Shown piece after piece: positions 5,087 through 32,237 of a DNA stretch of 64,000 nt. A program made the position numbers and the translations under genes. Numbering within the stretch: position 1 is the first letter of the stretch; every line of letters starts with the position of its first letter. The notes below the pieces were generated by a model. That model was not told the DNA's origin, did not search any database, and was given only the letters and a program-made list of their open reading frames with translations. This DNA comes from Cycas panzhihuaensis (Eukaryota; Plantae; Cycadophyta). Where the stretch lies: the NCBI GenBank assembly GCA_023213395.1, contig CM041465.1:138391741-138455740 (forward strand), read 5' to 3'.

Positions 5087-5442
5087 TGTAGGATGCACAC
5101 ACTCAATAATCAAAAACTGAAAATAATCAACATAAACCAATGTATAGATCTATTGATATATTTCATTGAATAGCAAATATGTACATATATAATAATGTAA
5201 AACCATTACGAGAGAGCCTTTTAGGAATATGAAGAGTTGATCATGCAAGGTGACACATGGCACCTTGTATCAATAACATTACAATGAGGTGAGAGCAAAA
5301 GAGACCCGACACATATAGACTCACAACCTCAAGTTATTACTAACCCTAACTATGATACTAACACCCTTATAATACACTAACATAGTAACATCACTTTAAA
5401 CATTAAACATATGACCTTTAAATTAAACACTATATTCCAATG
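5087..5442 (-). repeat. 3' LTR of the outer non-autonomous element
   Basis: Colinear with 31872-32237 (TGTAGGATGCAC...TATATTCCAA). Confidence 0.9.
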
Positions 5443-6169
5443 TCTCCCTATAATATTTAATTTATTACAATAAAAAATTATACCAAATACAACTTTTGTT
5501 CTCTTAACACTTCAACATCAAACTGCTTCATTAAAAGATATTACTAATATCTATATAAAGATATAACCATCCACTAGATCACATGGGTAAATATCCTATG
5601 TGTCCATTGGCCATCTAGGTAATGTCTTCACATACACAGTTTATCAACACTAAACAGATCTTCATCTGAGTTACATTTCAACCCCTGTAATAGTCTAATT
5701 CATGGACACATATCTCAGGAGTAGGCCGAACTACCTAACCAAATAAATATTGGAAATCCTGATATCCAAGAATAAGAAGTATTACTTGGTTAGCAATGTC
5801 TAGTAACTTCTGTCAATTTTGCCTTTTATCATGTAAGATTCTCAACATCAATATTTGACAAGCATCATCATCAACGACTTTTTGGCTAAAACAAATCATA
5901 ATTTTATCAAAAACTCCTTTGACTAGAACATATCAATGATTTTGAGCTATAAAGATCACATATAACAACAATCAATTGTTTACTACATAAGTTTACATTC
6001 ACAACTATAAAACATGGAGGTTTAAATCCTTTAGTTTTTAGTCAAGTGTTAATAAATAGGGTTATATTTTGTGAATCGCCCCCCCTTTTCTTATCATAAT
6101 TGGGTGTAAAAAAATGACATTCATGTGAAATATTACCTACATTTAAGCTAAGAGTCTTTTAATCATATT

Positions 6170-6520
6170 TTTTGGTCATACTTCAGTTGCAAATTTATGA
6201 ATTAATTACACTTGAGGTTATAATTGAGTTATATGTGATGTTACAATTACAACCTAGTCACACTTGAGATTACAATTGTGACTTGGTCATACTTATGGTT
6301 ATAATAGTGACCCGGTTGTAGTTGAAGTTGCGATTGTAACCTAGCCACACTTGTGATTGCAATTACAACCTAATCATACTTCCAGCTACAATAATGGATT
6401 GGTTGTATTTTTTACTAGGATTATGATTTGATCATACCTTGAACTATAAATATAACCTGGTTATATCTCTGATTACAATCATGCCCTGATTATGCTTGCC
6501 ACTACACTTGCAACTTCATT
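6170..6520. repeat. Degenerate ~29-bp tandem repeat (~12 units)
   Basis: Consecutive 29-mers such as ACAATTACAACCTAGTCACACTTGAGATT, ACAATTGTGACTTGGTCATACTTATGGTT and GCGATTGTAACCTAGCCACACTTGTGATT. Confidence 0.75.
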
Positions 6521-6802
6521 GCATCTACCAATCTTAGAAAGTATAGTGCCACTAAGATAATTTTTCCTCAAACTTCAACAAACTACTTAAAAAACAAATG
6601 TTCTTGACATTCTTCTGATCGAGATGCATCTTAGCCACCAATTAAAGTGAAAACAAGGGTGTAGGAACCAATTATAAATGAGTTAATCCTAAACTTTATA
6701 TATTTTAAAATCATTGTAGTCTTCACAATTGTAGTTTATCCAAACATTTTACAAGTATCTTTTGTACTATTATCACCACAAAGTCATCTGATTGAAACCT
6801 AT

Positions 6803-7245
6803 GTGTTCTAGAGATGCCAAATTAGCACATGCCAGGATAATACAAGAAAAGGTGAACTTATTAAGTATAATACTAATTCATTGCATCTAATAAAAAAATG
6901 CCAATACATCCTCAAGTGAAGGAAGTGGCATTCATGATAACTTCCACACGAACAACGCAAAAAAAAAAAAGCGTCGTTACAAATGGAAGTAAGGAGGTCA
7001 AATTACTTATGCCTCCAAACTCAATATCTATATATCACGTCTAACATAAGCTAAGATAATTGCAGTACATAAAATTATATTTCACTCTTAGGATTTTAAT
7101 GAAGATACACATATCTTTGTCCCTATAAATCTATCAAACATGTCTATTGTAATGGTAGCAACAACTGCAACACCTCTATTGGCTAGTTTAACTATCTAAT
7201 TTCTAAATTTTAGAATTCATGCCTATGGATTTGGCCTCGAAGACT
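6803..7245 (-). pseudogene. Captured PLS-class pentatricopeptide-repeat (PPR) gene fragment
   Basis: 6913-6803 translates EDVLAFFY*MQ*ISIILNKFTFSCIILACANLASLEH. Upstream are VVATITIDMF...NIILCTAIILAYVRR and GQIH, all typical PLS-PPR motif pieces. Stops are at CAG/CGA-type sites. Confidence 0.8.
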
Positions 7246-7748
7246 ATCAAGTATTAGGTTGCTCTATAGTGAAGATTTGGTTGAGTTGTCTTTATTCTTA
7301 GGTATTGTTGGAAATGATTGATGATTGTTTCTTCTTCTCTAGTCAATAGGGATTCATTATAAGAAGATAAAAGATTAAAAAATGAAAAAAGTTTAGTTGA
7401 AGTAAAAGAAGTGATGGCATATATTACTCCTACAAAGTTACTAAATGGGGTCAGTCACATGATAATACACCAAAAAGTAGAGAAAGTAATTATAGGTGAA
7501 GCATTAACACAATTATCTTTCATAGCAGTTATGTCATCTATCACAATTAGATTCCAAATGATTCATGATAAGATGCTTTGCATATTGAGGCTGAGGAGAG
7601 ATAAAGGTGAAGCAATAGAGATTTGCAGACATAAATGAGGGTTAAGGAGGTACAAAAAAATAGAGAAGTTTCATGAAGAGGCCAAACATCTAGAACCTAG
7701 GGGCATAATTATCAGATCAAGCATCCTTAAAAAGAAAAAACTTTAACA

Positions 7749-8413
7749 TGTTATATAAACTAGATCCCAATAACCAAAAACTGCCACCAAGATCTAAACT
7801 ATTTTGCAACTAGTTATATGAATCAAAACTAAAATTTAACATGCAACTTCTTAAACCAAAAATAATATAATAAATGAATTAGAAAGACAAGCATCACATA
7901 TACACTTGATATAATATACTAAAACCCTAGCAGTGTGCTAGGAAAACATCCACATAGGAAAGGTATTGATCTTTATTATCAAAGAATAGAGAAATATATA
8001 TAATCTGCACTTGAATGCTCATAGCAATAATAACTAGCTGCCTCTACTCAATACAATACATCTAATACATCGAACACCATCAACATAATAAAAAAACACC
8101 CTAAATCAAGTTATATGAGAGAGTCATACAATGCACAAATCTCGACCATTAAATTTAGGATATTTTGAACGAATTACCCCAATTCTCTTTACAATTTAGT
8201 ATACTTTTCAGTACTAGCTTTTTGGGTCAGGGGCTACCGCTCCTGAACACCCTCTTTATGGGGGAGGGTGGGGTTTTGGATCCCCCCGCACCCCCTGGAT
8301 AAGGGAAGCTCCTACCCTCCTTAGATTCCCCCCGTAGAAGTTTTGGGGAAAAACTGTGCTACCAACCTATCGAAATTTTAGCCTCCAAAACATTATTGTC
8401 ACATTATCTAACA
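7749..8413 (-). repeat. Copia 3' LTR
   Basis: Starts TGTTATATAAACTAGATCCC, ends ATCTAACA, and matches 29456-30115. Confidence 0.9.
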
Positions 8414-8469
8414 ATCTCCATCTTAACAACAATTTACCTAATACATTTCTTAGACTATTCATCACCTTT

Positions 8470-9434
8470 TCTACAAGCCAAGAGAAGTCAAATACCATTT
8501 AAACTTCTCCAATATTGCTTGTTTTTTTAACATGTTAGCACAATTCTATTTTGTGTTAACCTTCTCAAGTGCCACTCCACCTACTTTCACAACCTATATA
8601 ACAAAATAGTACTTAAAAGCAATATGCTTTGTCCTACTATGATAAGCTAAATTCTTTGCTAAATAAATAGTACTTTAACTGTCACAAAATATCTTTACCA
8701 TTTTCTACTTCCTTCCAAGCTCAACCAATAGACACTACAACTAGATTGCTTCTTTACAAGCATGTGCTATAATAACATATTTTACTTTTGTAGTCGATAA
8801 TATAATTATACTGTACAATTTTAACATCCAACTAACTAGACCACTTGCAAGAGTAAATAAATAACCCAAAGTAGACCTTCTCTTATCTGAATCTCCTATA
8901 AAGTCTAAATTAACATATCTATAAACCTGATTACTTGTACCTTCAAAGGTGATGCAATAGTCACTTGTGCCCCTCAAATACCAAAGTATCCATTTTAGTG
9001 TTGCCTAATGTTCCTTTCCTAGATTTTCCATAAACCTACTAACTATACCAATTGCATGTGAAATGTCAAGTCTTGTATATACCATGGTATGCATCAAAAT
9101 TCCTATTGCATTGGCATAAGGTACACAAGACATATAAGCTTTTTCTTCTTCATTACTAGGACTCACCAGTTTCACATTTGCCATACTGGGAAGCCAATGG
9201 GATACTCACCAGTTTCACATTTATCATACAAAATCTGGTTAGCACATTCTCCATATATTTCTATTGTGAAAACCATAGCTTACCATTTTTTCTATCTCTA
9301 TGTATCTCCATACCTAAGATTTATTTTGCAACTCCTAGATCCTTCATATCAAAAGTCCTAGACAATTGAGCATTTAACTTGTTAATTTCTACTATGCTCT
9401 TGCTTGCAACTAGTATGTTATTAACATATAATAT
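8470..9434 (-). pseudogene. Copia RT C-terminus and RNase H (degenerate)
   Basis: LYVNNIL (decayed YVDD), DFIGDSDKRRSTLGYLFTLASGLVSW, LSTTKVKY and FCDS*S motifs. Confidence 0.9.
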
Positions 9435-12221
9435 TGTTTCCCGGCTACTGAGAATGGATACAAATAGGTCGACCTAGGTAGGCTTAGGTATACTTCTCCC
9501 TTTTCACTTGTATTATTTCTTTGGAGAGGTTGACAGAAGTGTTGCCTCGTTGTATGACTGCTTGCTTCATTTGTATGATCACTTTGCATTTGTTCCCTGT
9601 TCATGCTGCTTGTTATATTGTGAGCCTGTGACGACCCAGCAGGACCTGCGTTTCTGCAAGGTAGGCATCCTCATGGCACTTTATGACTCTCCGCGCTATC
9701 TCCACACCGCCTCGAGTTTTTGTTAGACTGTATGACCCGTTTATGCCTCGACATTAAGCTCCTAACACCTCATTTCTTGGACCTTTTGCCTGTTGATGTT
9801 TGCTTGCCTCTGTCCACATGCATTTTGGACTGTCTCAACCACCTATACAGGAGGGCCAACCCCTCCCAGGCCTGCCACATCACCTCCCAAAGCTCCTAGA
9901 ACCCAGAATTCTGCCATTCTGGCTTTCTAGTCCCGCACTGCTGTAAACTTAGCAGTACCGCGAAGTTTACCGCAGTACTGCAAAGTTTGCCATGGTGCGA
10001 CTATTGTCAGTTGTTTTTTAGAAAATTGCTATGGAAATTCTTGCGTTTCCCGCAGAATCGCCACATGGCCTCACGTCCACCTCAGCCCTATTCATGCCCT
10101 ATTCGCCCACTTAGAGCCAGGATGGGTATAAGTATCCAAACCCTCATTATTTTGAGGTCTTCTTAAATCATTTTTTTTGCTCTCTTAAACAACAGTTCCT
10201 ACTACAACTTCTACTCTCCTTCTCTTCCTTCTATAGGTGTACTTGCAAGCCTGTGTTTCCTGCAACCTCAGGCCAGGATCCACCTACAACTACTTGCTTC
10301 CACGATGGGAAGCCTCTCTCCAGGTTTTATCAAGCAATTTTAGTGTTGATTCTTCTCCAACTCACCCAGCAAGTGTCCCTTTCGGTTGTCCATTGGAATC
10401 TCTCCTAAATACCCTTGTAGGGGTCCTCTTCTCCGCTGATAGCAGCCCCAGATCTACCGGATATCCGCCCAGCAGGTCTTCCAAACCCTTTTCTTCTAGA
10501 TTTATGGTAAGTTACCTCCATATTGGACCTACTTCTTGTCTTGTTTGCCTGTTTCCTTCAGGTTTCACCATAGCAAGATTTGTTTCTATTATATTTGGCT
10601 TGTTGCTTTCCGGCTCTACCTTTCTCTTCGCTAGTTTTCTTCGAGGGAGCAGCGAGAGAAGAGTCACAAGGTTGGGTGAAGAGAGCAAGATGGGGCAGCC
10701 GACTTTTCAGTCCTTCTCTCCAAGGGTAATCCCTTTCCACCTTCTCTTCTCTTGCTCTATGCTCTTCTTGGGATAATTAGGAGTGATTAAGCCCTAGGCC
10801 TGCGTTGGATTATCAGCATATACAGCCTCTCGCTATGCTGATTCCAGGCCTGCTCGCCTCTTATTTGGACCCCTATAGTGTCCCTCAGGTTATTGGGTAT
10901 CCCTTAATATCATTGGCAAGGGTTGTGCACTGGATTGCTGCCCATAGCAACTCTGTGTCTTGCATATTTCCCCAACGCTTCGTTACCCTTTTCTCTGCAT
11001 CTCTTGGTTGTCCTTAGTTGTCTTTACCATTACCTTGTTGTGCTTGAGAGTTATGTGGAGAACCCATTAGAGGGTTAGCCATCATGAGGCTTCCCTTACT
11101 CCATTTTTGCTTGATGTTTATCCTTGCTTGAGAGAGGGTTTTAGAGCTTATTGTACCAACTATTTTTCCTAACACTCTAACATAAGTATCACATATATAC
11201 TTGCATATACATAGTTTATCTTTTGCAGCCCCTTCTCGGAAGGGATAAGTCCATGCATGTGTAGGTTGTCGTGGTGCTCTTGTAAAGGTATAAAGCGTTC
11301 GGATCTGGGTAAGGTCTACCATTTTGTTCTTTACTTTGGCTTCTTTCCTTTTTGCTTTATTTTCATAAAGGGGAAGGTAAGGGAGCCCCCACCATTCACG
11401 TCAAGACTTGGTTACACATCCGTGGATTGACGCATGGACGTACGTTACACGTGGGTGAGGTCCCCCATCGACCACTACATCTTCCAAGTACATACATCCT
11501 TCCTCTAACTCTCGTTTTCCCTTTCTTACTTTTGTTTAGGATATATGTGTTAGTTAAATAAGTCACACATAAAAGTAAAAGGAGAAACAGTATCTTTTAT
11601 TTATGCTTGTATATTTGTACATCGTATACTCAACCCTCATAGGAAAAGAACCTATAGCAAACTCACCCTTCCCTTTTCCTTTTCTTGCAAAGCCTAGCTT
11701 ACCCTTTCGGTTCATTCCACTTTGGATTGTTTGCTTGCATATGTGACACCTATTCCCGTTTCCTTTCCTGTTTCCTTTTCGAATCGTTAGGGGAAACTTT
11801 AGTTTAGTTATCCCATTCTCTTTTCTCTCTCCTCCTCTTGGCCTTATTTGCTTGGTCAAATAACCAAGAGGAACCCGGCCACATCATAGGCTATCGCCTA
11901 CCTTATCCCTGCTCGTTTCCCTCCATCATAGGGAAATCTTTGAGGACTCCTCTCTTCCCCTTCCGACCATCCAAGGGTGGGAGGATCTTCCTCTTGAGTT
12001 TATTCGGGCTACCTTTCTTGTTTTCCCTCTTTCTCTCTTCGATAGAAGACCACCCCAAGGTAATTGGGTATCATCCGCAGGTCCCAAACTCTTGCTTCGG
12101 TGCATGGGGTGCCCTGCGTGATACTTACTTTGCTTGTAGGTTTTCACCCGCACCCTCGATATCACCATCGACCATCATCATTCCTACCAAGCTTAGTGAT
12201 TATCCCATAAATGCATATCCA
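9435..12221 (+). repeat. Tat 5' LTR
   Basis: Colinear with 23674-26460. TATA-like TATAAG at 10127. Confidence 0.95.
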
Positions 12222-12477
12222 CTGGTGACTATACTGGGGACTTGTCAGTAAGGGAGCTAGTTCCTATCTCTTTCTATTGATACTATTACCTTTTAGTGGT
12301 CTCCTCCACTTCATCTCCTTTGTTGGACAAACCCCAACACGCATGCCTTGCATCCCTTTCCTTCTTCTAAAGTGTTGGTAAGTGTTGTATGCGACGCTTT
12401 TTACGCCGCCTACGTGGTTTGTCTTCTTTCAATATCCTAGGTATTGTCTTCTTTCATCGTCGAATTATGATTCGAAA

Positions 12478-15400
12478 ATGGAAGGGTACCCTTCCAATTG
12501 GGCCTATCATGCTTTTGCTTCGGGAGCTCATGAGTTCCCCGCATCCATTCTAGGATCCACTCAAGATGGTGACGATCCTATTTACTACCTGGGTGACCAA
12601 CGTCACCCACTAGACACCCATCCTTCTACTCATGCGGTAGAAGGCTCATCTCCTTTTGAGATCCACCACCTAGTTGGTGATTCTTATGAGGAGCGCCCTA
12701 AGGGGTCTACTTCATTTGAGGTCCCATCTACCTCTTATTATCATGTGGATACTCCTCCTGCTGATGTGGTTGAAGCACTTAGTGAGTGCTTTCGAGCTGT
12801 TCGTCTTCAATCGCGTTCTAGATGGTTTGAAGATGTTTTACGTGGTGGAGCGCCTTCTTCATCCACTCCTGTCCCACCTCCTTCATCCGCATCCACACCT
12901 CCCACAACGAGTAACCTTTTTATGCCTACACATTCGTCACGCTCCATCCCTACACCTACTTTGGGGACGCATGTTGCACCTTCTATCCCTCATCATGGTC
13001 CTAGTTCTTCGGAACCCTCTCGTGGTATGTCTTTCTCCTAGCTTGGGGTTAGCATACCTTTCCCAAGTCAAAATAGCATGCCACCTCCTAACGTGGCGTA
13101 TACATTTCTTAGTAGGCCTAAAGGCCCTACTAATGTTACTATCACTAGTCATGCATGTGGGACCCGCTCCCACGTATCCTCCAAACCAATCCAATGGTTC
13201 TTCTCTTTACATATCCCCAGGTTATACTTCTCAACCTTGGGGGCAGGGTAAAGGGAATTATATTCTAGCTTACGGGGTAGACCCGCTACATACATATGGG
13301 GTTGCACCACCCACGAGTGGCCGATATGGACAAAACCCAATTCCACACCCTTCCTTTCCTCCATCCTGCATAGCTCCTTATGCTGCACCTTTGCAAGGAA
13401 TCCCAACTTCCCTCCAAGACACTTACCCTCAAGCCCCTTTCCAGCATGGGACGCTCCCTCAAGGAGGGATGGGTTTACCACCCCCATCCATTCCTTATTC
13501 ATTACCTCCTACATTGCTTGTCGATCCTACGGTCCAGGCAAGGTCACGTCCCTTTATGGATTATAGATCGACACCATTATCTGTTGAGGCATTAAGAACC
13601 AACCTACCACCTCATCCTCCCGAAGTTCCTAAGTTTGACAGAACTTCATCACAAGACCCAACAGAGCACGTCCGTAGTTTCTCTATGGCATGTATTGATT
13701 GCTAGGCCTATAATCACATCCTAATGAAATTATTTCCATGATCCTTACAAGGCGATGCCCTTAAGTGGTTTTATCACCTACCAGCTCATTCCATTTTCTC
13801 GTTCCAGCAACTTGTGGACGAGTTCATCAATTATTTTGATGTTACTCGTCTATTCGAAAGTGGAATGAAATCCCTTCTTTCGCTCAAATAAGGGCACGAT
13901 GAGATGAATTGTGACTTTATGCGGCGATTTCATGACCTTCTTCATTCCACTAAGGCTACTTTACCTGAGGAATTGAAGAGGGATCTCTTCATTAATGCAC
14001 TTCTCCCTGAAGTCCATGTAGAAGTCCTTAAGATGGGGGCGACTACATGCGACTCTGCTATCGCAAAGTGCTTAGCACTTGAGGCTATTGAGATCCAGGC
14101 TGGACTCAAGAAGCCTCTCAAGCCCTCACAACGTCATGAGGTACCACCTCAAACTAAAGAGACCAAACCACAATAATCCACTAAGTCCTCTTCCCATCCG
14201 ACTGAGAAGACCTTAGATCTGCTCACCTCTGCCATATATTCATTCGAATGTACGATGAAGGAACTTAAACTGCAAGCTCCTTCATCACCTACTTCCAACA
14301 AACAAATCCAGAAAGCTAATCAAGCTTCCTTCCCTAAGAACGGTAACGCCCAATCCTCTCAAGCGAGGAAGATAGATTCCTCACTTGAAAAGAAGTGGTG
14401 TTCCATTCATGGGGAGTGTTTTCATGACGAGTCACGTTGTAGGGCCTAGCATCCCAGGGATTCCCCTTAATGTGACTCATCCCCTAAATAGGCCTCAAGG
14501 CCAACCTTGACCAACTGGTCCATAAGGATCCATTCCCTGAACATGGGGAACATGATTGTAATGCTCAACCCAAAAATAACTAGAACCGGGGAAGATCCCT
14601 GAATTCTCGTCCTTCCCACGATAAAGGAAAGGGCACTCGGGATTCATCTTCTTCTTCACGTTCCCCTCACTCACGTACTCCTTCACCTTCGCAGTCCCGG
14701 AACAAGGGAAATAAGGTAATCCAGATGCTTGAGGCTGCTCCTTTATATGCCTTTACTCAGTCTTAAGCCACTAAAGAGGCAGTTGGTGCCTCTTCTTCTG
14801 CTCCACACTCTGATCCTCTTCTGGAAACCTCCCTTTCGGAAGTCCCATTATGTCCTAAGGCCATTCCTATATGTCCTGGTCATTACGATTTTCGAAGGGT
14901 GCTTATCCAACCTACTGTGAAGGGTAAGCCTTTCTTTATCGTTGATGAGCTCCATACTATCGCTGTGGGAATGTCCTTGATGGATGTTTTGAGGAATTGT
15001 CCCAAATAACGGACTCTCCTTTTGGAAGCTTTAGGATCGAATGGTGTGCCCATCCACACTTTGGGTGTTACTCAAAGCCATGAGCTTGTCATTTCCTTTG
15101 ACCCTAAAGACCTTCCCCCTGCATGTGAAAGGGAATGCCAATGGAACTTCCCATTTACCATCACCATTGACACACTTGACTATACTCTGTGAATGACCGT
15201 TGTCGACAACAGTTATTCCGTGAATGCCATGCCCTTGCGTGTTATGCAAGAGCTTGGCATTTCTACTTTGGAACCTGTTCCATGGCGATGCTAAAGCTAT
15301 GATGGTAATGAAAAGACTCCATTGGGATCTATTTCGATCCCACTTACTCTCAAGGGTAAGACTGTCCTCACTGACATTGTAGTCCTTGACGTTGACGTCA

Positions 15401-18400
15401 ACTACAATCTTCTCTTGGGTCGACCATGGCTTGATCAGATGGGAGCTATGTGTTCGACCCGCTGGAGGCAACTCAAGTTTGTCCATGATGGACGGATGAG
15501 GGTTGTTTCCTGCGAACGCCTACCTATTAAGCAAACTCGTCTGATTAACCAAGCGAGCCAAGGCCCTTCTACTCACACCTCAGCTTGCTCCATCGGCATA
15601 CCTGATCCATCCCACATTGAAGAAGATCACGCACCTTCTTCCTCTAGTCTTATGCGCTTTGCTCCTATCAGTGTTGGGAGTTATGGGTACCTTACCTCGT
15701 TTAGCGACGATGAGTCCCATGATGAGGATGAGGGCTTTCCTCACCCCATTTCTTTCCTCCATACTAGTAGGATGCACCCTTCTTGTTCTAGGTCCTAACC
15801 TAGAACCCCTCTCGTTGGTGAGACTAGTCACCCCTTTGTATCATATATCGTTGCACGCTTTGACCCACCAGTCGCTGGTTCTTCTTCTTCATCACCCCCT
15901 GCAAGTAATGGTTTCAAGGAACTGCCTTTTGCTCCTTCCGAGGAGCCCCTTCCTAGCTCTCTCCTAGAGTCTTCTGAGGAGGTTAGATAGCCTGATGACC
16001 ACCACGGTCCCGTTGTTCCCACTTCCTCCAACACTTCATCTATTCAGAGTAAGGTCATCCATGGGGTGGATTACTTCGAAGATGATGAAGCCTTGCTTGA
16101 GCACCTAGTGGGCTCCGTGCCCAACTTTTCTTCTGATCACCATAGGCTTGGCCACTAGAAGATTCTGGCGATTGGGTCCACACTCACTGACCTAGTTCCA
16201 TCCCCTATTCCACCTCTTCCTATTGACCTTGCCCCTCTCCATTTCGAGGAGAGGAATGCCATGTGCATGGGGGTGACCCAGGACATAGTCTTAGCCCCTG
16301 GCAAGGTCATTAAGGTAGGGGCAGAATGCTCTCCTAATGAAGTAAGGGAATATTCCCTTTTGTTCCTGGAGTTCCGGGATGTCTTTGCATAGGATTATTT
16401 TGACATGAATGGAATCGATCCCTCCATTATCACCCATAATCTCACTACCATTCTTGGTGCTTGACCCGTGCACTAGAAGCAGCATCTTCTCCACCCTAAA
16501 CTCTCAGCCACTGTCAAGATAGAGGTTGAGAAGCTTTTGGATGCTAGACTTATTACTTCTATCGACTACCCTAAATGGGTATCCAACATTATTCCCATTG
16601 CTAAAAAGAACGTGACCATCCGGATATGTATTGATTTCCGTGATATTAACAATGCATGCCCTAAAGATAACTTTCCACTCCCCTTCATCAATCAAATCAT
16701 TGATCGAACTACTAGATTTGAAGTTATGTCCTTGATGGACGGCTTCTCCAGTTATAATCAAATTCAGATATCTCCTAAAGACTGCCATAAGATAGCCTTC
16801 ACTACCCCGTGGGGTACCTTTGCCTACAAGGCAATGCCCTTTGGCCTTAAAAATATAGGCGTTCCTTACCAAAGAGCAATGCACTTTATTTTCCATGACC
16901 TCATTGACAACACATTAGAGGTCTTTATGGATGATGTGATGGGCCTGTCATGTGTCAAGGCCCATCATCCCTCCGACTTGCGGGCTATCTTCACGTAATG
17001 CCGTAAGTACCATGTAAGCCTAAACCTGCTCAAATGTGTGTTTGCCGTTACTTCTGTCAAACTCCTTGGATTTCTTATGTCAAAACAAGGAATTCAGATT
17101 GACCCCGACAAGGTCAAGGCAATCCTTGATATGTCGCCTCCTATAACCTAATGACAGATCAAGTTGTTTCTAGGTAGGCTCAGTTTCCTCAGGCACTTCC
17201 TGGCAGACTTCGCTGTAAGCGCCAAACACCTAACAAACCTATTGAAGAAGGGAGCTCTATTTGTTTGGTCTGATAAGGCCCAACAGGCCTTCGAAGGACT
17301 TAAGGAAGCCCTTGCTTCTGCTCCTACGTTGGCATCCCCTTGTTTCGATAGGCCCTTCATTCTCTATACCTCAGTGATTGATGAGTCCCTATGCACTATG
17401 TTGGCTTAGGAGGACGACTCAAGAGTTGAGAGAGTCATTTACTTTATCAGTCGCACCCTTATGGCTGCCGAACTCAACTACTCTCTGGCCGAGAAGGAGT
17501 GTCTCTCCTAAGTCCACACGACCAAGAAGTTTAGACATTACTTGCTTGGTAACACCACCAAGGTGATCGTCTAGTCTGATCCCTTGCAATATCTACTTAC
17601 TCGTTCAGACCTAACGGGTAGGGCTAGCCGTTGGGCTGTCCTACTTTAGGAGTTCGATCTTTGTATCATCAAAAGGAAATTGAAGAAAGGGATGGTAGTG
17701 GCTGAGCAGCTCGCAGATGCCCCTATCCCTAACTCGCTTGATACCCTTGTTGACGATTCCCTTCCTAATGAGTCTATCTTGACTATTCAGGACGTCTCTC
17801 TCCATTTACTCATTGACAATGAGTGGTATGGTGACATTGTGCGATATCTCACACAACAGTAGTACCACCCTGAAGCTAGTAGTAAGGTTAGATCTCGTAT
17901 CTGGACTTCTGCTAGGCAATACTTCCTCATGGACGAAGTATTGTACAAGAGGTCTTTCGATTGGATCCTCCTCCGCTGCGTCGTCACCAACGAAGTAGAC
18001 CAAATACTCTGTGAATGTCACCATGGTATTTGCGGGGGCCAATCTATAGCCCAAAGCATCCTCCGCATGGGTTGCTATTGGCCGTCCCTCTTCAAGGACA
18101 CCCATGCTTTTGCCTTGAGGTGCCAGTGATGCCAGGAACACGCTAACATCTCCCATGTGCCTTCTGAGGCCCTTCACCCTATCATATCTCTGTGGCCTTT
18201 CACTCAATGAGGTCTAGACCTCATCGGGGCTATCTCCCCACCTTCCTCGTCGCAACACAAGTTTATATTGACTACTATGGAATACTTTACTAAATGGGCG
18301 AAGGCCATCCCTCTAGTTACTACCCTAGGTAAGATGATAGCTACCTTCATTTACCAGTATATCATTTACTGCTTCGGGATTCCTGATGTGCTGATTACTG

Positions 18401-21814: not shown

Positions 21815-22305
21815 TCAAGTCCATGGCATCGGGCCCCGCAAAGAAAGATCACAAGACCGCGATCTTTGCCGCGGTGCAAATGGCACCCCCCCAAAAGGGG
21901 GGGGTTTCTTGCCCAAAAAATCCAAAAATTCTTCTAGTGGGCCACAGTCAGGCCCACTAGGACTATGGCTGCCTAATGCCCCAGTCCTGCCTCTTTTTGG
22001 GTCTAATTTAAACTCCGGGAGGCCTTTTCTTGCCCATACGGGGCTTAAAGATCTACATAAAAATCATAAAAAATAGTAAACTTTGACATGAGAGATGGGT
22101 TGGGTTTTTTATGATCCACTCACTAGATCTGGCCCAGCGCTCGCCATCTCGTCTCTATGATCCCAATGTCTGTCCTCTAGCCCTGATCCAACGATCCAAT
22201 CTCTTTCTGCGTGCCTCTGAAGTCGGATAGCGCTTCGCTGCGTAAGGGAATGGCTCTGGATTTGTTCGAGAGCCCGTGAAAATGAATCTTATTTTCATCA
22301 ATTTT

Positions 22306-22316
22306 CCTTATATAGG
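22306..22316 (-). promoter_or_regulatory. Candidate TATA box for the antisense PMD transcript
   Basis: Minus strand reads CCTATATAAGG, upstream of a GTGAGT donor (22123) and a TTTTGCAG acceptor (21643). Confidence 0.4.
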
Positions 22317-22857
22317 CGAGGACCCCGACAGGCACTGTCTCCATTTTCGCTCTCATGACAGCCCTTTGGATCGTCTCTTACCCCTAATCATCTTTTCCTT
22401 CTGGCCCTGTCTCCCATTGTGCTCCCATAGCCTTCATCTCGCTTTTCCTTGTGAGTGCATTTATGGCACCCTACCAATGCATTTTTTCACAGGGTCCCTT
22501 TTGTCTCGTTTGCGTGTCACTCCCGTGTATGCCCGAGTTTATACTTGTTTAGCTTATTTTGCCATCCTAGACTCATTTTTGCAGCTCATTCCTACCCCTA
22601 GGGTCTCCAAAGGGAATGCTCCCTCTATTCAGAGCCATTCTTTGCTTCCCAAAGCAACCTTTGGCACCCCAATGTGCCCTTTTGCCGCCCACTTCTAGCC
22701 AGTGGTTGAATCGCCTACTCTTGTCCTTGGGTAGCCTCATTGCTAGGTCCTCCTACCCTTCACAGCCATTTATTACTTGCCATACGAGTCTCTTTGTGAT
22801 TCGACTCTTATATTATTGCACATTTTCCTCTACCGAGACTTTTTTCTGTCATCATCT

Positions 22858-23235
22858 ATGTCTCTCTTCATCTTTACCAACGGTGGAAGCCGCAGTAATC
22901 CCGGACCTTCTGTCGTCGCATGGATTCTTCGCAGCTCTTCCAGACATGACTTCCTGCATTCTAGAATCTTTCTCCCTGAGGCCACCAATAACGAAGCCGA
23001 GTACATGGCCGTTATCAAGGCCCTAACTGATGCGCTCCATTTCCATCGCGAATCGGTTGTTCTTCTTTACAACTCCTAGGTTGTGGTGTCCCATCTCACC
23101 TAGGTTTACCAGGTGTGATACCCTTACTTGAAAGCCCTCGCTTTGACCACCAAGTCTCTTTTAGCTTGTTTCCAGTATGTCGACATCTGACACATTCCTT
23201 GGGCCCTCAATATTGAGGTAGATAGTCTTGTTCAC
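22858..23235 (+). pseudogene. Additional archaeal-type RNase H (aRH) domain downstream of integrase
   Basis: FIFTNGGSRSNPGPS...EATNNEAEYMAVIKALTDAL...YNS*VVV...HIPWALNIEVDSL, matching RNase HI DGGSRGNPG / TNNxAEY / DSxLVV / HIPRxxNxxAD. Confidence 0.88.
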
Positions 23236-23673
23236 CTCATAGATAGTCTTGTTCACCTCATCCTTGAGCACCGCCTTCCTCTTCTTGCTGACCGTCCCTG
23301 AGACTTGCCCGGTTGCTCTGTCACCCAAGTCCCAGGCCATCGTGCACATCACCTTGCAATCCATTCGCACCTCCAAAAGCTAGCTGCTAATGAGGTTAAA
23401 CTATGGCGACTACCAGGTTTGCTCATTCACCCTTTTTACCTGACTTTATCATGCACATCTCTTTGCACTTTTGTGATGGAGGCAGTCCCTATGTTGTCTT
23501 CACCTCTATCCTCGTATCCACACGTTCCGCCACGACACTCGTCGGTACCCTTGACTTCTGTTATGATTATGATTTATATATGTACATACACATGTGCTAC
23601 TAACAGTTGTGTTGCCAGCATTCGCCATCGCACCATGCTCCTGAGCGGTGAGGCTCTGCTGCCAAGGGGGCAG

Positions 23674-26460
23674 TGTTTCCCAGCTACTCGGAATGGATAA
23701 GGATAGGTCAACCTAGTTAGGCTCAAGTATACTTCTCCCTTTTCACTTGTACTATTTCTTTGGAAAGGTTGACAAAAGTGTTGCCTCGTTGCATGACTGC
23801 TTGCTTCATTTATATGATCACTTTACATTTGTTGCCTGTTCATGCTGCTTGTCATATTGTGAGCCTATGACGACCCAGTGGGACCTACCTTTCCGCAAGG
23901 TAGGCATTCCCATGGCACTTTACGACTCTCCGCGATGTCTCCACACCGCCTTGAGTTTCTATTAGACTGTATGTCCCATTCATCCCTCGACCTTGAGCTC
24001 CTAGCACCTCATTTCTGGGACCTTTTGCCTGTTGATGTTTGCTTGCCTCTGTCCACGTGCATTTTGGACTATCTCAGCCACTTAGACAGGAGGGCCAGCC
24101 CCTCCCAGGCCTGCCACATCACCTCCCAAAGCTCCTGGAACCTAAAATTGCCATTTGGCTTTTACGGTCCCACACCATCAGTAAACTTAGTGAGTGCTGA
24201 AGTTTCTTGGCGGTACCATGAGGTTTGCCATGGTGCGACTATTATCAGTTATTTTTTAAAAAACTGCTATGGCAATTCTCGCATTTCTTGTGGAATCGCC
24301 ACGTGGCCTCGCATCCGCCTTAGCCCTATTCGTGCCATATTCACCTACTTAAGGTTGGGATGGGTATAAGTATCCAAACCCTCATCATTTTGAGGGCTTC
24401 TTAGATCATTTTTTTCACTCTCTTACATAATAGTTCCTGCTGCAACTTCTGCTCTCCTTCTCTTCCTGTTATAGGTGTACTTGTAGGCCTATGTTTCCTG
24501 TAACCTCAGGCTAGGATCTACCTGCAACTACTTACTTCCATGGTAGGAAGCCTCTCTCTAAGTTTTATCAAGCAATTTTGGTGTTGATTCTTCTCCAACT
24601 CACCCAGCAAGTGTCACTTTGGACAGTCCATTGGAATCTCTCCTGCAAACCCTTGCACGGGTCCTCTTCTCCACTGATAGCAAGCCCAAATCTGCCATAT
24701 ATCTGCCCAGTAGATCTTCCGAACTATTTTCTTCTGGATTTATGGTAAGTTACCTCCATATTGGACCTACTTCTTGTCTTGTTTGCCTGTTTCCTTCAGG
24801 TTTCACCATAGCAAGATTTGTTTCCATTATATTTGGCTCGTTGCTTTCTGGCTCTACCTTTCTCTCCACTAGTTTTCTTCGAGGGAGTAGCGAGAGAATA
24901 GTCACAAGGTTGAGTGAAGAGAGCAAGGCGAGGCAGCCCCCCTTTTCAGTCCTTCTCTCCAAGGGTAATCCCTTCCCACCTTCTCTTCTCTTGCTCCATG
25001 CTCTTCTTGGGATTATTAGGAGTGATTGAGCCTTAGGCCTGCGCTGGATTATCAGCATATGCAGCCTCTTGCTGCGTTGATTCTAGGACTGCTCGCCTTT
25101 TGTTTGGACCCCCGTAGTGTCCCTCGGGTTGTTGGGTATCCCTTGATATCATTGGCAAGGGTTGTGCACCGGATTGCTGCCCATAGCAACTCTATGTCTT
25201 GCATATTTCCCCAATGCTTCGTTACCCTTTTCTTTGCATCTCTTGGTTGTCCTTAGTTGTCTTTACCATTACCTTGCTGTGCTTGAGAGTTGTGTGGAAA
25301 ACCCAGCAGAGGGTTAGCCATCCTGAGGCTTCCCTTACTCCATTTTTGCTTGATGTTTATCCTTGCTTGAGAGAGGGTTTTAGAGCTTGTTGCAGTAACT
25401 ATTTTTCCTAACACTCTAACATAAGTATCACATATATACTTGCATATACATAGTTTATCTTTTGTAGCCCCTTCTCAGAAGGGATAAGTCCATGCATGTG
25501 CAGGTTGTCGTGGTGCTCTTGCGAAGGTATAAAGCGTTCGGATCTGGGTAAGGTCTACCATTTTGTTCTTTGCTTTGGCTTCTTTCCTTTTTGCTTTCTT
25601 TTCATAAAGGGGAAGGTAAGGGAGCCCCCACCATTCACGTCAAGACTTGGTTACGCATCCATGGATTGACGCAAGGACGTACGTTGCACGTGGGTGAGGT
25701 CCCCCATCGGCCGCTACATCTTCCGGGTATGTACATCCTTCCTCTAACTCTCGTTTTTCCTTTCTTACTTTTGTTTAGGATCTATGTGTTAGTTAAATAG
25801 GTCACACATAAAAGTAAAAGGGAAAACAGTATATTTTATTTACATTTGTATATTTGTACATTGTATACTCAACCCTCATAGCAAAAGGACCTATAGGAAA
25901 CTCACCCTTCCCTTTTCCTTTTCTTGCAAAGCCTAGCTTGCCCTTTTGGTTCATTCCACTTGGGATTGTTTACTTGTATATGTGACACCTATTCCCATTT
26001 CCTTTCCTGTTTTCTTTTCAAATCGTTAAGGGAAACTTTGGTTTAGTTGTCCCATTCTCTTTTCTCTCTCATCCTCTTGGCCTTATTTGCTTGGTTAAAT
26101 AACCAAGAGGAACCTGGCCACATCGTAAGCTATCGCCTACCTTGTTCCCGCTCGTTTCCCTCCATCATAAGGAAACCTTTGAGGACTCTTTTCTTCCCCT
26201 TCCGGCCACCCAAGGGTGGGAGGATCTTCCTCTCGAGTTTATCTGGGCTACCTTTCTTGTTTTCCCTCTTTCTCTCTTCGATAAAGGACCACCCCAAGGT
26301 AATTGGGTATCATCCGCAGGTCCCAAACTCTTGCTCTGGTGCATGAGGCACCCTGCGTGATACTTACTTTGCTTGTAGGTTTTCACCCGCACCCTCAATA
26401 TCACCATCGACCATCATCATTCCTACCAAGCTTAGCGATTATCCCGTAGACGCGCATCCA
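23674..26460 (+). repeat. Tat 3' LTR
   Basis: Starts TGTTTCCCAGCTACT after the PPT and ends CATCCA. Same length as the 5' LTR. Confidence 0.95.
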
Positions 26461-29383
26461 AATACCAAGATAATAAATAATCCATTGTCTAAGAATTTAA
26501 AGTAAACACAATGATCATACTCACTTCTTTTAAAATTTTAGCTCTCCATGAAGGTATTAAACTTCCTATACCATTGCTTGGTACAATGATTTCCTGAGCC
26601 TATAAATAACTCTTTTCTTGTCATCCTATACAAACCCTTATGGTTGATCCATATAGATCTCTTTATCTAAATCTCCATATAGAAATGTTATTTTTACATC
26701 TAACTACTCAAACTCTAAATCAAGAGAAGCTATCAATGCTAACAAAACCCAAATTGAAACAAGTTTGATAACTGGTGAAAAGATCTCATGAAAGTCAATA
26801 CTTACTTTCGATATAAAACCTTTAGCTACCAGTCTTACTCTATATTTATCAATCTTTCTATCAACATCTATTTTCTTCTTAAAAACCCACCTGCAACCAA
26901 CAATCTTCTAACCATGTGGAAGTTCTACCAAGTCCCATGAATTATTTTCTTCAAAGCATCTAATTCTTCCTGCATAACCCTCTTCCACTTCTCACTATGG
27001 ATATCATCTACTACTTCCTCATTAAATGTAGGCTCACCATTATTAGAAACCAAAGTAATAGAAATAGAAGGGTGTACCTATCAGGTGGATGACTTATTTA
27101 TATAGACCTTCTAACAGTTGGTGGAGGAGTGTCCATATACTCCTATAAATCTGTTGTAGATTCATCTTGAAAAAAGTCTTCTTACTCTTCTATTTTTAAA
27201 AATGGCTAGGTCTCAAGCTTGACCTGTTGATGTTCAAATTTCTACTCCTATTTCACTTCAACTTCTACACTATCTAATTTTATAAAGGGAGATTCATCAA
27301 ACATAACATCTCTATTAATAATCATTTTGTAGGTAGTGGGATCCCATAACCTATATCCCTTCACACTATCTCTATCACCATAACTAACAAAGATATATCT
27401 CTTAGATTTTGGGTCTAACTTTTATTAGTCAAGGCATAAGCATCATAACCAAAAACTTTCAAATTTGAATAGTCACATACATGTCCAGTCTATACCTCTT
27501 TAGGAATCTTATAGTCTATTACAAGTGATAGGGACCTATTTACCAAATAATAAGTTATCTAGATATCTTCTGCCCATAAGCCCTGCTCCACTCCTACATT
27601 ACTTAGCATGCTTCTTGCTCTTTCCAAGAGTGTCATATTCATGTACTCAGTTATGTCATTCTATTGTGGAGTATAACTAGTGGTCTTATACCTTTCAATC
27701 CTAGCTTTTCTGCAATAGTTCTCAAACTCCAAGGAGTTGAACTCACCTCCATTATCAGTTCTTAAATATTTGATTGACCTGTCAATGCTCTTCTTAACTA
27801 GAGCCTTACACTGCTTAAACACACTAAATACTTTAGATTTCTTTTTTAAAAAATAGACCCATACTTTTATAGAGCAATCATCTATAAATGTGATAAAGTA
27901 CAATGATCCTCTATAAGATATTAAAGGGGCTAGTTCCCACACATCTGAATATACATAATCCAGAACACGTTTACTAGTGTAACTCCCTACTTTAAACCTG
28001 AGTCTATACTACTTTAAAAAAATCTAATGTTTACAAAAAGTCAAATCTGAAAGCTGTAAATTATGAAGCAACTTACAGTTTATCAGCATCTTAAGTTCTC
28101 TCTCACTCATGTGCCCAAGTCTCTGATGCCATAACTGAGCTAGATCTTTTGCAGTCTTTAATGTTGTAGCTACATGGCTGCCATATATAGTTCCCACTAA
28201 AATGTAAAGGTTTCCTTTCTTTAAGGCTTTCATAACAACCAAGGCGCCCTTTGACACCTTTAAGACTCCTTCATAATCTGTGTACTTATGACCACCAGAA
28301 TCTAGTTCATACAAAGAAATTATATTCCTTTTTAGATCAAGTACATGTCTAACTTTAGTTAATATTCTTACTATACCATTGAACATTTTAATTCTGATGC
28401 TACCAATGCCCATTGTTTTGTAGGAAACTTCATTTTCCATAAGCACATCACCACCATCAAGAGGTTGGTATAATGAGAACCAACTCTTATGTAGACACAT
28501 ATGGTGTGAAACACTTGAATATAATAATCAATCATGTTGATAATGGGAAATATTATAAGCAACCAAGACATCATCATTTGTACCTTGATTTGACTCCACA
28601 CGATTAGCCTCATTGGTAGGATCTTCATTTTTCTGGAACTTCTTTCTTTTATAACAATCCTTCTTGAGATGACATGTCTTATTATAGTGCCAATATCTGA
28701 GCTTACTCTTCTTGCCTTTTGACTTTGACCTTGATGTGTTCCTAGAGCTTTGTCCTCACTCAATCATTCTGCCTCTTGATGTCATAGCTTTTGGTGTGGA
28801 GGTTTCAAGACTGAACTGCCTTCTCACTTCTTCTATCAGCAAAGCACTTATAATAGAATCATAGTCTAATTCATCTATAATGCTAAAACTAATTGAGGTG
28901 ACAATATTATCCCAAGATTCTAGTAATGAATATAACAAGGTAACAACCTGACCATCCTCAATCGTGACATCGATACTAGCCAATTGACAAATAAAAGTAT
29001 TGAAAATATTTAAATGATCAATATTTTTGTACCTTCCTTCATCTGCAATGAGTACAACTACCTCTTCAAGTAGATTTGATTCGTCACTGATTTTGTCATA
29101 TACAAGCCTTCCAACTGGATCCGTAATCCTATTGTTGTCTACTCCCCTTCGATATTAAATAAAACTTCATCCACTAAGCATAATTGTATTGTGCTAGTAG
29201 CCCTTTTGTCTAGATCATCCCATTTGTCATCATTCATCCCCGCGGGTTTTTCAATTTGCCTACAAAAGCTTTGTACAAACCTTGTTATACCAGAAGATCA
29301 TACATTTTCAACTTCCACAACTCGAAGTTATTCTTGCTATTAAATTTCTCCACCTTGAACTTTACATTTGCCAATTTTACCAT
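26461..29383 (-). pseudogene. Copia gag-PR-INT-RT(N) (degenerate)
   Basis: MVKLANVKFKVEKFNSKNNFELWKLKM start, LWHQRLGHMSE, YFITFIDDCS, LRTDNGGEF, GCRWVFK and FSPV motifs. Confidence 0.92.
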
Positions 29384-29455
29384 TTGGTATAAAAAAAGTC
29401 GACACCCAAACCTTTATAAACTCACTGTAAAAATAAAAGTGGCTCTGATACTATT

Positions 29456-30115
29456 TATTGTGTAAACTAGATCCCAATAACCAGAAACCACCACAAAGAT
29501 CTAAATTATTTTATAATTAATTACAAGAATCAAAACTGAATTTTAACATACAAGTTCTTAAACCAGAGATAATACAATAAATGAATTAGAAAGCCAAGCA
29601 TCACATATATGCCCGATATAACGTGGTAAAACCCTAGCAGTGTGCTAGGAAAACATCCATATAGGAAAGGTATCAATCTTTATTATCAAAGAATGGAGAA
29701 ATATAAATAATCTATAGCAAAATACTCATAGCAATAATAACTAGTTGTCTCTACTCAATACAGTATATCCAATACATTGAACACCATCAACATAATGAAA
29801 AAACACCTTAAATCAGGCTATATGAGAGTCATATAAGATATAAATCTTGACCATTAAATCAGAAGTATTTTAAATGAACAACCCTAATTCTCTTTACAAT
29901 TTAGTATGCTTTTCAGTGTTATCTTTTTGAGTTAAGGGCTACCACCCTTAAACCACCTCTTTACAAAGGGTTTCTGACTCCCCCCCGCCAACACCCCCTA
30001 GCCAAGGGGGACTCCTGCTCCTCTTAGATCCCCCCATAGAAGTTTGGGGAGAAAGTTGTGCTGCCAACCTATCAAAATTTTAGCCTCCAAAACATTATTA
30101 TTATATTATCTAATA
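29456..30115 (-). repeat. Copia 5' LTR
   Basis: Matches 7749-8413 and is adjacent to the PBS. Confidence 0.9.
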
Positions 30116-30917
30116 CAATAGAGGATGGAGGAGGTGACAGAGGTTTATCAAGAATACCACATAAAGAATGAGCCTTATCTGTCGATGAGAACAGAGAATG
30201 GGGTGATAACCCCAATAGGTATACAAAAAGTGAAGGTGCCCTCATCATAAGATCTCTAGATCAAACCCCATGGCCTCTTCGTATTCTTATTCCTTTGACA
30301 GAGAGCCCGGTATGCTTATGAAGGATTAATAGGCACAAAGTATGACCAAATAATTCTCTGCAAATTCCCAAGTCCATTTTATTCACTTCTGCAACAAATC
30401 CAATTGTTTAGAAATGCCTTCATTTCCATAACATGTTACTTATATTATTTCCACTCGAGCATCTAGGCGCTCCTACTAATCAAAATAGGAAGCCCTTTGC
30501 TAAAGTAAATTTTATTAACTCTCTAGAAAGGTGTTGAAAATTGTTTACCCTACTCTTGACCAAAAATCAACATTTACTATCGCTTAATTTTTTTTGCATA
30601 GAATATTATAAGTTTGGCCAACAGGGTAAACAACTTTACTGACTTAAGGTTTTGACGGAGACATGCCATGATTTAATATAATCGATGACCAACAAAGTAA
30701 AATTCTCTTCAACGCTCCAATAGATGCATGTAATCTATACTTACAAATCTCACTTATTGGGGATAATGAGAAAGAATATTACACATCAAGCATTTCCATG
30801 TAGGATTGATTTTCCCATAGCCACTCATATACATCATATATAGATGTCAATAACCTAATAGAACTCATGTTATAAGAAAGAAAAAGGGCCTACAAATATC
30901 ATTTGCAACACCCATTC

Positions 30918-31047
30918 TCACTTGCTACCTCGGGCCACCATCTCTTAGTAGTGTGAAAATTATTCTTATCTCTAAGGATGAATTTGTTGATTAAATTTAG
31001 CAATAAAATCCTCCATAAGCTTGTTTAATTCTTTATTAGGGATGGGA
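30918..31047 (-). pseudogene. Captured C-terminus of a DUF761 (cotton-fibre-expressed-like) gene
   Basis: Translates ELNKLMEDFIAKFNQQIHP*R*E*FSHY*EMVARGSK*. Reverting single substitutions gives the DUF761-type signature ELN..VEDFI.KFN.Q.RLQRQES...Y.EM..RG, ending at a stop. Confidence 0.78.
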
Positions 31048-31569
31048 AGCTTGTTAATGATTCTGAAAACATTCAAACCAGTAATGAGATCGGCATCCTT
31101 GGTGGCCTATCTTTGAGAATCATTGAAATAAGCTGGCATAGTAATAATAGTGTTCTTTATAATCTAACCCAAAAAATGCCTCTACAATCTCTTTCATCTT
31201 ACTCAAGACCATAGAGGAAATTTCTTCAAGAGAAAAATGTTTCTTCTCATCTTTATATCTAACCTCAATCATGGGCTTATCATCAAGACCAACAAAAACC
31301 TTAAAAGGCCACATCTTCATGTCCTTCTACATAGAAGGATCATTGAAACACATTCAGATCAATCTATTTACATCAAATACAGTATTCTGTGGATTCATGG
31401 ATGCCTAATTCTTAGTTATGTCTCCTATGAGGCATTTAGTATTAGTGAAAACCACATAAGAGGGAGTAGTCCTATTCCCCTAATCATTTGGAGTTATCTC
31501 CACTTGATCATACTACCATACACCAATGCAGTTGTACATCATTCCCAAATCAATTCCAACTACCTTCAT
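31048..31569 (-). pseudogene. HSP70: Captured cytosolic HSP70 N-terminal (ATPase) fragment, intronless, with stops and one frameshift
   Basis: VGIDLG...GVW*YDQVEI..ND*GNRTTPSYV.FT...NPQNTVFD...KMWPFKV...[13 protein letters not shown]...[14 protein letters not shown]...GLNVFRIIN. Confidence 0.95.
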
Positions 31570-31871
31570 ATAAATCATTTCCCATGCATAAATTAAGTTG
31601 AAAGCCTAATGAAAATCATAATACGGGGATAGAAAATAGTAATATAATCTAAGGGCAGGTCATAACACCAAAGACACCAAGCAATAGCTAACCATAGTTA
31701 ATTCCAACATCACCACATCATCATTATAGCAACAATTAGAGCCCATAGAAAGACTCTTAGATTGAATGCACACATAGTTATATTATACATATCACTCACA
31801 TCCTAGGTTTAAGCAGTGCCATCTTGAGAAGTACGAGGATGGCTACCTTTAAAACTTACTCTAATAGTACA

Positions 31872-32237
31872 TGTAAGATGCACGCACTCGATAATCAAGA
31901 ACTAAAAATTATCAACATAAACCAATGTATAGATCTATTGATATGTTTCACTGAATATTGAATGTATACATATATATAGCAATGTAAAATTGTTATAAGA
32001 GAGGCTTTTTAGAATATGAAGAGTTGATCATGAAAGGTAACACATGGCACCTTGTATGATTAATGTTATAATGATATTACAATGAGGTGAGAGTAAATGA
32101 GACCCCATACATATAGGGTCACATCCTCAAACTATTACTAATCCTAACTATGACACTAATACCTTTATAATGCACTAACATAACATCACTTTAAACATTA
32201 AACATATGACCTTTAAATTAAACATTATATTCCAACA
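31872..32237 (-). repeat. 5' LTR of the outer non-autonomous element
   Basis: TGTAAGATGCAC...ATTCCAACA followed by TSD ATTAT. Confidence 0.9.

What the first reader, a model, noticed from the sequence alone, without database searches (positions are those of the whole stretch)
5087..32237. 'Pack-LTR' element: a gag/pol-less LTR retrotransposon assembled from fragments of at least three host genes
Seen: paired ~360-bp LTRs, perfect ATTAT TSD, PBS and PPT. Removing the nested copia leaves ~4.8 kb with no recognisable retroviral domain. It contains HSP70, DUF761 and PLS-PPR pieces, all on the element's sense strand. Established: single-gene transduction by LTR elements is known (e.g. maize Bs1), and multi-gene capture is typical of Pack-MULEs and Helitrons. 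Inference: same-strand orientation of all three fragments fits serial RNA-level template switching during reverse transcription, making this family a possible exon-shuffling vehicle and a source of siRNAs matching HSP70 or PPR genes.
Basis: partly seen in the sequence, partly recalled or inferred. Interest (0 to 1): 0.88.

Follow-up and report, generated by a model that had tools for sequence, protein, structure and literature searches.

The report
Dead retrotransposon carrying four gene fragments
An old, dead plant jumping gene with no detectable copying enzymes carries decayed pieces of at least three, and probably four, unrelated host genes, at least one join of which recurs in diverged sister copies; it was likely built by the known RNA template-switching route already described for maize Bs1 and soybean mini-retrotransposons, so it is a good example rather than a new kind.

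Summary
Real, but a known kind. LTRs 5087-5442 and 31872-32237 are 87% identical with an exact ATTAT TSD. The element reads on the minus strand and holds a nested copia, which holds a gypsy. Contigs about 83% identical span the HSP70-DUF761 join in 3 of 4 public runs laid, so the chimera was copied. No gag/pol was found, but Pfam also missed the nested copia's RNase H, and the 3' block beside the PPT looks like element backbone. The novelty premise fails: Bs1 itself captured three genes, the soybean TRIM GmaRetroS15 carries three, and a gymnosperm survey found two or more captured fragments in 13.68% of carrier TEs. An RNA route is likely but unproven: no intron loss was shown, and four of four same-strand has p=1/16. 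A probable fifth frame may be antisense. siRNA action is untested and unlikely at this divergence. This scan noted analogous elements in ray genomes.

The parts
5082..5086 (.). Left TSD ATTAT
5087..5442 (-). 3' LTR of the outer element (356 bp)
   Evidence: 87.3% identical to the right LTR
5443..5456 (-). Polypurine tract, eroded here, shared by many family copies
   Evidence: loose ends of 45-62 contigs per run
5457..6040 (-). 3' block shared by many contigs; probably element backbone (PPR or decayed pol origin not shown)
   Evidence: summed depth 157-1985; one 81%-identical contig bridges LTR and block; homolog at 35214-35402 before another PPT, E 1.4e-6; no PPR hit
6175..6410 (.). Degenerate internal repeat, about 82-bp offset, 69% identity
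6806..6919 (-). PLS-PPR fragment (end of a P motif, start of an L motif)
   Evidence: moderate support
6920..7195 (-). Block shared by many contigs; 7040-7195 reads PPR-like by eye only
   Evidence: depth and bridging contigs; no PDB hit
7203..7343 (-).
   Evidence: TIGR01880 profile 6-52, E 2.5e-8; PDB 1q7l E 0.034
7363..7748 (+). Left half of an unidentified, unusually open frame that continues in frame across the copia site (possible fifth fragment; orientation unsure)
   Evidence: 5 stops in about 243 codons, P=0.0055; no homolog
7749..30115 (-). Nested Ty1/copia element, LTRs 83.6% identical, TSD TAACA/CAATA
9435..26460 (+). Ty3/gypsy element nested in the copia; 2.8-kb LTRs 90.7% identical; extra RNase H after the integrase
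30121..30466 (+). Right half of the unidentified open frame; matched without gaps by about 83%-identical contigs
30588..30595 (-). A8 run about 325 nt after the DUF761 stop; the only sense A-run of 7 or more in the interior; weak poly(A) candidate
30918..31034 (-). DUF761 C-terminal domain through its terminal stop, in frame with the HSP70 end
31050..31566 (-). Cytosolic HSP70 fragment, aa 7-178, no intron, one frameshift, 7 stops
31858..31869 (-). Degenerate Met-initiator PBS (8/12)
31872..32237 (-). 5' LTR of the outer element (366 bp)
32238..32242 (.). Right TSD ATTAT

Best explanation
This is a dead LTR retrotransposon copy, likely non-autonomous, whose interior carries decayed pieces of HSP70, DUF761, aminoacylase-1 and probably PLS-PPR genes, likely gathered by reverse-transcriptase template switching onto co-packaged host mRNAs and likely copied onward, cargo included, by another element's enzymes. 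Shown: LTR pair, TSD, minus orientation, three firm fragments and one moderate one, and diverged contigs that share the HSP70-DUF761 join and other joins. Inferred: insertion by an LTR integrase (TG..CA ends, 5-bp TSD); capture at the RNA level; stepwise build-up, with blocks near the PPT and PBS common in the family and HSP70-DUF761 and ACY1 present in a small sub-lineage; mobilisation in trans. After insertion it was hit by a copia, then a gypsy, and decayed. Nothing indicates a present function.
For: Boundaries and TSD. Cargo hits. Contigs with 34/205, 34/205 and 59/348 differing letters and 0-1 gaps span the HSP70-DUF761 join in 3 of 4 runs, two organisms, beside contigs 98-100% identical that represent this locus (table 8). 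The listed variant letters include changes back towards the donor (three DUF761 stops removed) and away from it (Ala to Val in the HSP70 TKDAG motif), so the sister looks like a decayed sibling, not the donor (variants read singly, possibly from different contigs). Six contigs in 3 runs join the HSP70 5' end to the PBS-side leader (table 5). One 81%-identical contig bridges the LTR and the 3' block; another links 7459-7627 to the ACY1 region. No fragment has its own clear TSD. The published model predicts retro sequence kept at both ends, a replaced middle and secondary rounds of copying (PMC5131818, passages).
Against: No intron loss is shown. The 11 best HSP70 matches carry the FSPEE motif, as the one hit named Hsp70-5 is expected to (motif link recalled), and a Brassica Hsp70-5 is intronless (PMC6707343, table passage); the tree left the fragment unplaced. 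DUF761 and PPR genes are often intronless (recalled). Microhomology at the joins cannot be tested without donors. No single contig spans a whole sister element, and depth is not copy number. A possible fifth frame is more open on the plus strand. An 18/20 inverted match brackets most of the cargo and beat 40 of 40 shuffles. Only about 22% of the interior is assigned to donors. The nested copia's LTRs are nominally more diverged (0.192) than the host's (0.143), though the intervals overlap and transversions are equal.
Confidence: 0.68

Rival explanations
1. The cargo was assembled at the DNA level in a Pack-type DNA transposon or Helitron that then inserted into an ordinary short LTR element.
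For: 18/20 inverted match at 6140-6159 and 31749-31768, near the edges of the low-depth block, above 40 of 40 Markov shuffles. No intron-loss proof. A possibly antisense fifth frame.
Against: No TSD flanks the inverted pair (flanks). No inverted repeat of 40 bp or more in the window. No Helitron-type hairpin plus CTRR near a cargo edge. Contigs join HSP70 to the leader while failing to match the stretch that holds one arm.
Confidence: 0.14
2. A decayed copia derivative whose 3' block is its own eroded pol end; it carries fewer real captures than it seems, and the PPR piece is a later local insertion or a chance likeness.
For: The 3' block has a homolog before another element's PPT. Pfam is blind to copia RNase H. 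At least 7 contigs join 5851-5859 directly to 6912-6914, skipping the 1,055 bp that begins with the PPR piece.
Against: No alignment of the block to the nested copia's RNase H (z at most 0.5). A contig with 24/134 differences bridges the PPR piece and the block upstream of it. This reading is largely compatible with the best explanation and changes only the 'pol-less' label and the fragment count.
Confidence: 0.12
3. The fragments landed one by one in a single resident element (retrocopy insertions or break repair), and the sister contigs come from an old segmental duplication, not from retrotransposition.
For: No contig shows a sister copy with different outer flanks and full cargo. The cargo copy number looks low. 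An A8 run follows the DUF761 piece.
Against: Sister divergence (about 17%) is as large as or larger than LTR-LTR divergence (13%), as expected for separate insertions of similar age. Several structural variants of the joins exist. No fragment has its own TSD.
Confidence: 0.06

Closest known systems
Soybean TRIM GmaRetroS15 and other gene-carrying TRIMs (Gao et al. 2016, PMC4717578; section 13 and passages read)
   Same: Two LTRs, 5-bp TSD, fragments of three host genes, more than one copy; TRIMs are non-coding (recalled).
   Different: Those are 1.2-1.4 kb and show lost introns. This is 4.8 kb, much older, carries four or possibly five donors, and intron loss is not shown.
Maize Bs1 (via PMC13317346 and PMC5131818, passages; the primary paper was not held)
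   Same: LTR element with segments of three unlinked host genes, low copy, all copies sharing the switch points.
   Different: Bs1 forms a transcribed and translated chimeric gene. This copy is full of stops, and no expression data were available.
LTR-mediated retroposition in animals (Tan et al. 2016, PMC5131818; passages read)
   Same: Partial gene pieces replace the element's interior, multi-parent chimeras occur, and further rounds of copying follow.
   Different: Their hallmark, microsimilarity at the switch points, could not be tested here.
Gene-fragment capture by gymnosperm TEs (Bao et al. 2026, PMC13477047; abstract, section 12 and passages read) and maize Sireviruses (Muyle et al., 10.1101/777037; passages read)
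   Same: About 400,000 captured fragments per gymnosperm genome; 13.68% of carrier TEs hold two or more; first and second exons are preferred, as with the HSP70 and ACY1 5' pieces here; 15% of capturing Sireviruses hold two or more.
   Different: The passages read give genome-wide counts and examples labelled with gag/pol domains; they describe no coding-less four-donor family. Supplements were not read.
LARDs, large non-autonomous LTR derivatives (recalled, not tested against a source)
   Same: No coding capacity, longer than 4 kb.
   Different: LARDs have long LTRs and a conserved structured non-coding core; here the LTRs are short and the core is a gene mosaic.

Membership tests
LTR retrotransposon | Paired direct LTRs with TG..CA ends | tested here: met
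   87.3% identical; outer ends intact; one inner end mutated
LTR retrotransposon | 4-6 bp TSD | tested here: met
   ATTAT/ATTAT, chance 0.006
LTR retrotransposon | PBS and PPT beside the LTRs | tested here: met
   PBS 8/12, P=0.013; PPT shared by 45-62 contigs per run
Non-autonomous LTR element | No gag/pol coding remnant | tested here: inconclusive
   No Pfam hit and no tblastn hit to the nested elements, but the positive control for copia RNase H failed; REXdb not on hand
Bs1-type / LTR-mediated multi-gene retrocopy | Partial sequences of two or more unrelated host genes between the LTRs | tested here: met
   HSP70, DUF761 and ACY1 firm; PPR moderate
Bs1-type / LTR-mediated multi-gene retrocopy | Other copies share the switch points | tested here: met
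   HSP70-DUF761 join spanned by about 83%-identical contigs in 3 of 4 runs; whether those copies have LTRs at both ends was not shown
Bs1-type / LTR-mediated multi-gene retrocopy | Loss of donor introns | tested here: inconclusive
   The HSP70 piece is intron-free, but its nearest type may be natively intronless; donor loci not on hand
Bs1-type / LTR-mediated multi-gene retrocopy | Microsimilarity at the switch points | not testable with these tools
   Needs donor DNA; no genome is held
TRIM | Small size (gene-carrying TRIMs 1.17-1.45 kb) | tested here: not met
   4,779 bp against PMC4717578 section 13
Pack-TIR transposon (Pack-MULE, Pack-CACTA) | Terminal inverted repeats with their own TSD around the cargo | tested here: not met
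   None of 40 bp or more; one 18/20 pair without a TSD
Helitron | 3' hairpin followed by CTRR at the cargo end | tested here: not met
   One candidate below -8 kcal/mol, at 5615 on the plus strand, not at a cargo edge; decay could hide it

The most novel reading that the evidence does not exclude
A large, previously undescribed non-autonomous LTR family of a giant plant genome whose common backbone is itself PPR-derived and whose sub-lineages have stacked up to five host fragments module by module, including an in-frame HSP70-DUF761 fusion that was once translated; the family would be a dated, multi-species record of serial gene capture.
Probability: 0.2. Interest if true: 0.62.

Novelty: new member of a known kind. 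Interest (0 to 1): 0.36.

Why it matters
It is a well-bounded example of LTR-borne multi-gene capture, probably in a gymnosperm-sized genome, where such capture has been counted in bulk but, in the passages I read, not dissected element by element. With the assembly in hand, its sister copies could show the order of captures and test template switching directly. It does not open a new class, and this copy is dead.

Tried and rejected
No whole genome is held, so the genome-wide LTR search could not be run. Two exact LTR patterns found 0 loci in metagenome contigs. No RNA holder was listed among 24 runs; this says nothing on expression. PPR origin of 5443-6300: no PPR hit in 5 PDB searches, Pfam or the representative library, whose single hit was a spurious repeat protein. 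No similarity between that block and the PPR block. Word-based homolog searches for the PPR piece (0 of 115 candidates) and the plus-strand frame (0 of 111; longer proteins only) found nothing. The protein atlas gave no answer. Copia RNase H origin of the 3' block: no significant alignment. The leader hairpin after the PBS is not unusual (z 0.75). No Rfam match in the window. No heat-shock element in the leader. The HSP70 tree did not place the fragment (61 of 145 rows used; long branch). NAD-GH Pfam hits on the plus strand lie antisense to HSP70 and were discounted. The term 'Pack-LTR' is in 0 papers, but the thing it names is in print. A five-term search for PPR capture by conifer LTR elements gave 0 papers. 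No earlier scan note lies near or resembles this sequence.
Full report
Structure. The repeats at 5087-5442 and 31872-32237 are 87.3% identical (K2P 0.143, interval 0.098-0.188) and are flanked by ATTAT on both sides. A degenerate Met-initiator PBS lies 2 nt inside the right LTR (8/12; 1.3% of random positions do as well; motif recalled). A purine tract lies inside the left LTR; 45-62 contigs in each of 4 public runs run from the LTR end into a matching tract. The element therefore reads on the minus strand. A copia sits at 7749-30115 (gag, protease-region and integrase hits; TSD TAACA/CAATA), and a gypsy sits inside it at 9435-26460 (RT, integrase and an extra RNase H). LTR distances are 0.143, 0.192 and 0.102. 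The copia's excess over its host is within the intervals and disappears on transversions (0.028 against 0.026). Without the nested elements the outer element is 4,779 bp. The host is a plant, probably with a giant, gymnosperm-like genome; this is inferred from old LTR pairs, runs with 5-6 Gb of sequence and a Cryptomeria protein among the best HSP70 matches.

Cargo, 5' to 3'. After a 285-bp leader comes cytosolic HSP70, aa 7-178 (31566-31050), 68% identical to its best relatives over the first 137 aa, with one frameshift and 7 stops. Five codons later, in the same frame, comes the DUF761 domain through its terminal stop at 30918. An A8 run about 325 nt further on is the only sense poly(A) candidate. 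Across the copia site lies a stretch whose plus frame has 5 stops in about 243 codons and stays in frame when the copia and one TSD are removed (P=0.0055 against 2,000 shuffles, best of six frames). One minus frame is nearly as open. No family or homolog was found, so it may be a fifth fragment, possibly antisense. Then comes a PLS-PPR P/L stretch, 6919-6806: 9 of 10 PDB hits are designed PPRs, PLS types first, but at 12-13 bits per domain, and Pfam and NCBIfam miss it. The assigned pieces cover about 22% of the interior.

The 3' block. 5443-6040 looks PPR-like by eye, but seven searches found no support. It is shared by many contigs, and 5486-5670 has a homolog at 35214-35402 just before the PPT-like tract and LTR-like unit of another element (z 9; E 1.4e-6). 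It is most simply the element's own 3' backbone. It could be an eroded pol end: it does not align to the nested copia's RNase H, but Pfam also fails on that RNase H. 'No gag/pol' is therefore unproven at this end.

Other copies. No genome is held, and two metagenome scans were empty. Of 24 listed runs, 11 hold part of the right arm. Four were laid on the right arm and two on the left; about half of each run was read and the tables are cut. Contigs 96-100% identical mark this locus in three organisms. Contigs about 83% identical span the HSP70-DUF761 join with at least 75 letters on each side in X1, X3 (the same organism, probably the same copy) and X5; none is listed for X2. The listed variant letters remove three DUF761 stops but also break a conserved HSP70 residue, which fits a sibling that decayed on its own (letters read singly). 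Six contigs in X1, X3 and X5 join the HSP70 5' end to the leader at 31799-31805. On the left, one contig bridges the LTR and the 3' block at 81%, one links 7459-7627 to the ACY1 region, one bridges the PPR piece and the block upstream of it, and at least 7 join 5851-5859 to 6912-6914, skipping 1,055 bp. Summed depth is in the hundreds to thousands on the LTR and the two 3' blocks and about 3-70 on HSP70, DUF761 and the middle. The tool warns that this is not copy number, and donor paralogs add to it. The pattern suggests a common backbone with rarer cargo-bearing sub-lineages. No contig spans a whole sister element.

Mechanism. The best reading is capture by template switching in the particle, followed by copying in trans, as modelled by Tan et al. 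(PMC5131818, passages). The RNA step is inferred. Four of four firm or moderate fragments are sense, p=1/16. The HSP70 piece lacks an intron, but its 11 best matches carry FSPEE, a motif I recall as typical of the Hsp70-5 type, and a Brassica Hsp70-5 has no intron (PMC6707343, passage). Junction microhomology needs the donors. A DNA-level rival has one hint: an 18/20 inverted match at 6140-6159 and 31749-31768 that beat 40 of 40 shuffles but has no TSD. The siRNA idea is untested. At about 17% divergence between siblings, a 24-mer survives intact about 1% of the time (0.83 to the 24th power), and Muyle et al. note that cross-talk fades with divergence (10.1101/777037, passages).

Comparison. 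Both papers state that it carries segments of three genes (PMC13317346; PMC5131818; passages). Soybean GmaRetroS15 is a TRIM with LTRs, a 5-bp TSD and pieces of three genes (PMC4717578 section 13). A survey reports about 400,000 captured fragments per gymnosperm genome, with two or more in 13.68% of carrier TEs (PMC13477047 abstract and section 12); its supplements, which I did not read, might list this family. The label 'Pack-LTR' returned 0 papers. Earlier scan notes describe analogous multi-fragment elements in ray genomes (unchecked).

Verdict. It is a new member of a known kind; interest 0.36.

Noticed in passing
window 35214-35880 (+): A homolog of the outer element's 3' block, followed by a PPT-like tract, an LTR-like unit and three short repeated LTR-end/PBS-like units ending in a near-canonical Met PBS; no partner LTR in the window.
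   Followed up: partly
window 51646-54977 (-): Three separated chaperonin (Cpn60/TCP-1) pieces, E 3.3e-9 to 1e-3: an intron-containing gene or pseudogene.
   Followed up: no
window 9435-26460: Gypsy element with 2.8-kb LTRs and a second RNase H at 22747-23076 after the integrase; recalled as a Tat-lineage trait.
   Followed up: partly
window 6140-6159 and 31749-31768: 18/20 inverted match between the leader and the 3' interior, above 40 of 40 shuffles, no TSD; could be chance, a long-range RNA pairing or a TIR relic.
   Followed up: partly
window 6920-7035: About 115 bp with a T12 run on the element's strand, splitting what looks by eye like one PPR P motif; it has the highest contig depth of the inner left arm.
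   Followed up: partly
window 49916-50408: Three tandem copies of a 163-bp unit, 94% identical.
   Followed up: no
window 33835-34276 and 57062-57931: Dispersed repeat pair, about 75% identical.
   Followed up: no
window 640-770 (+) and 38502-38714 (+): Remnants of further gypsy elements: an integrase C-terminal SH3 and an RT piece.
   Followed up: no
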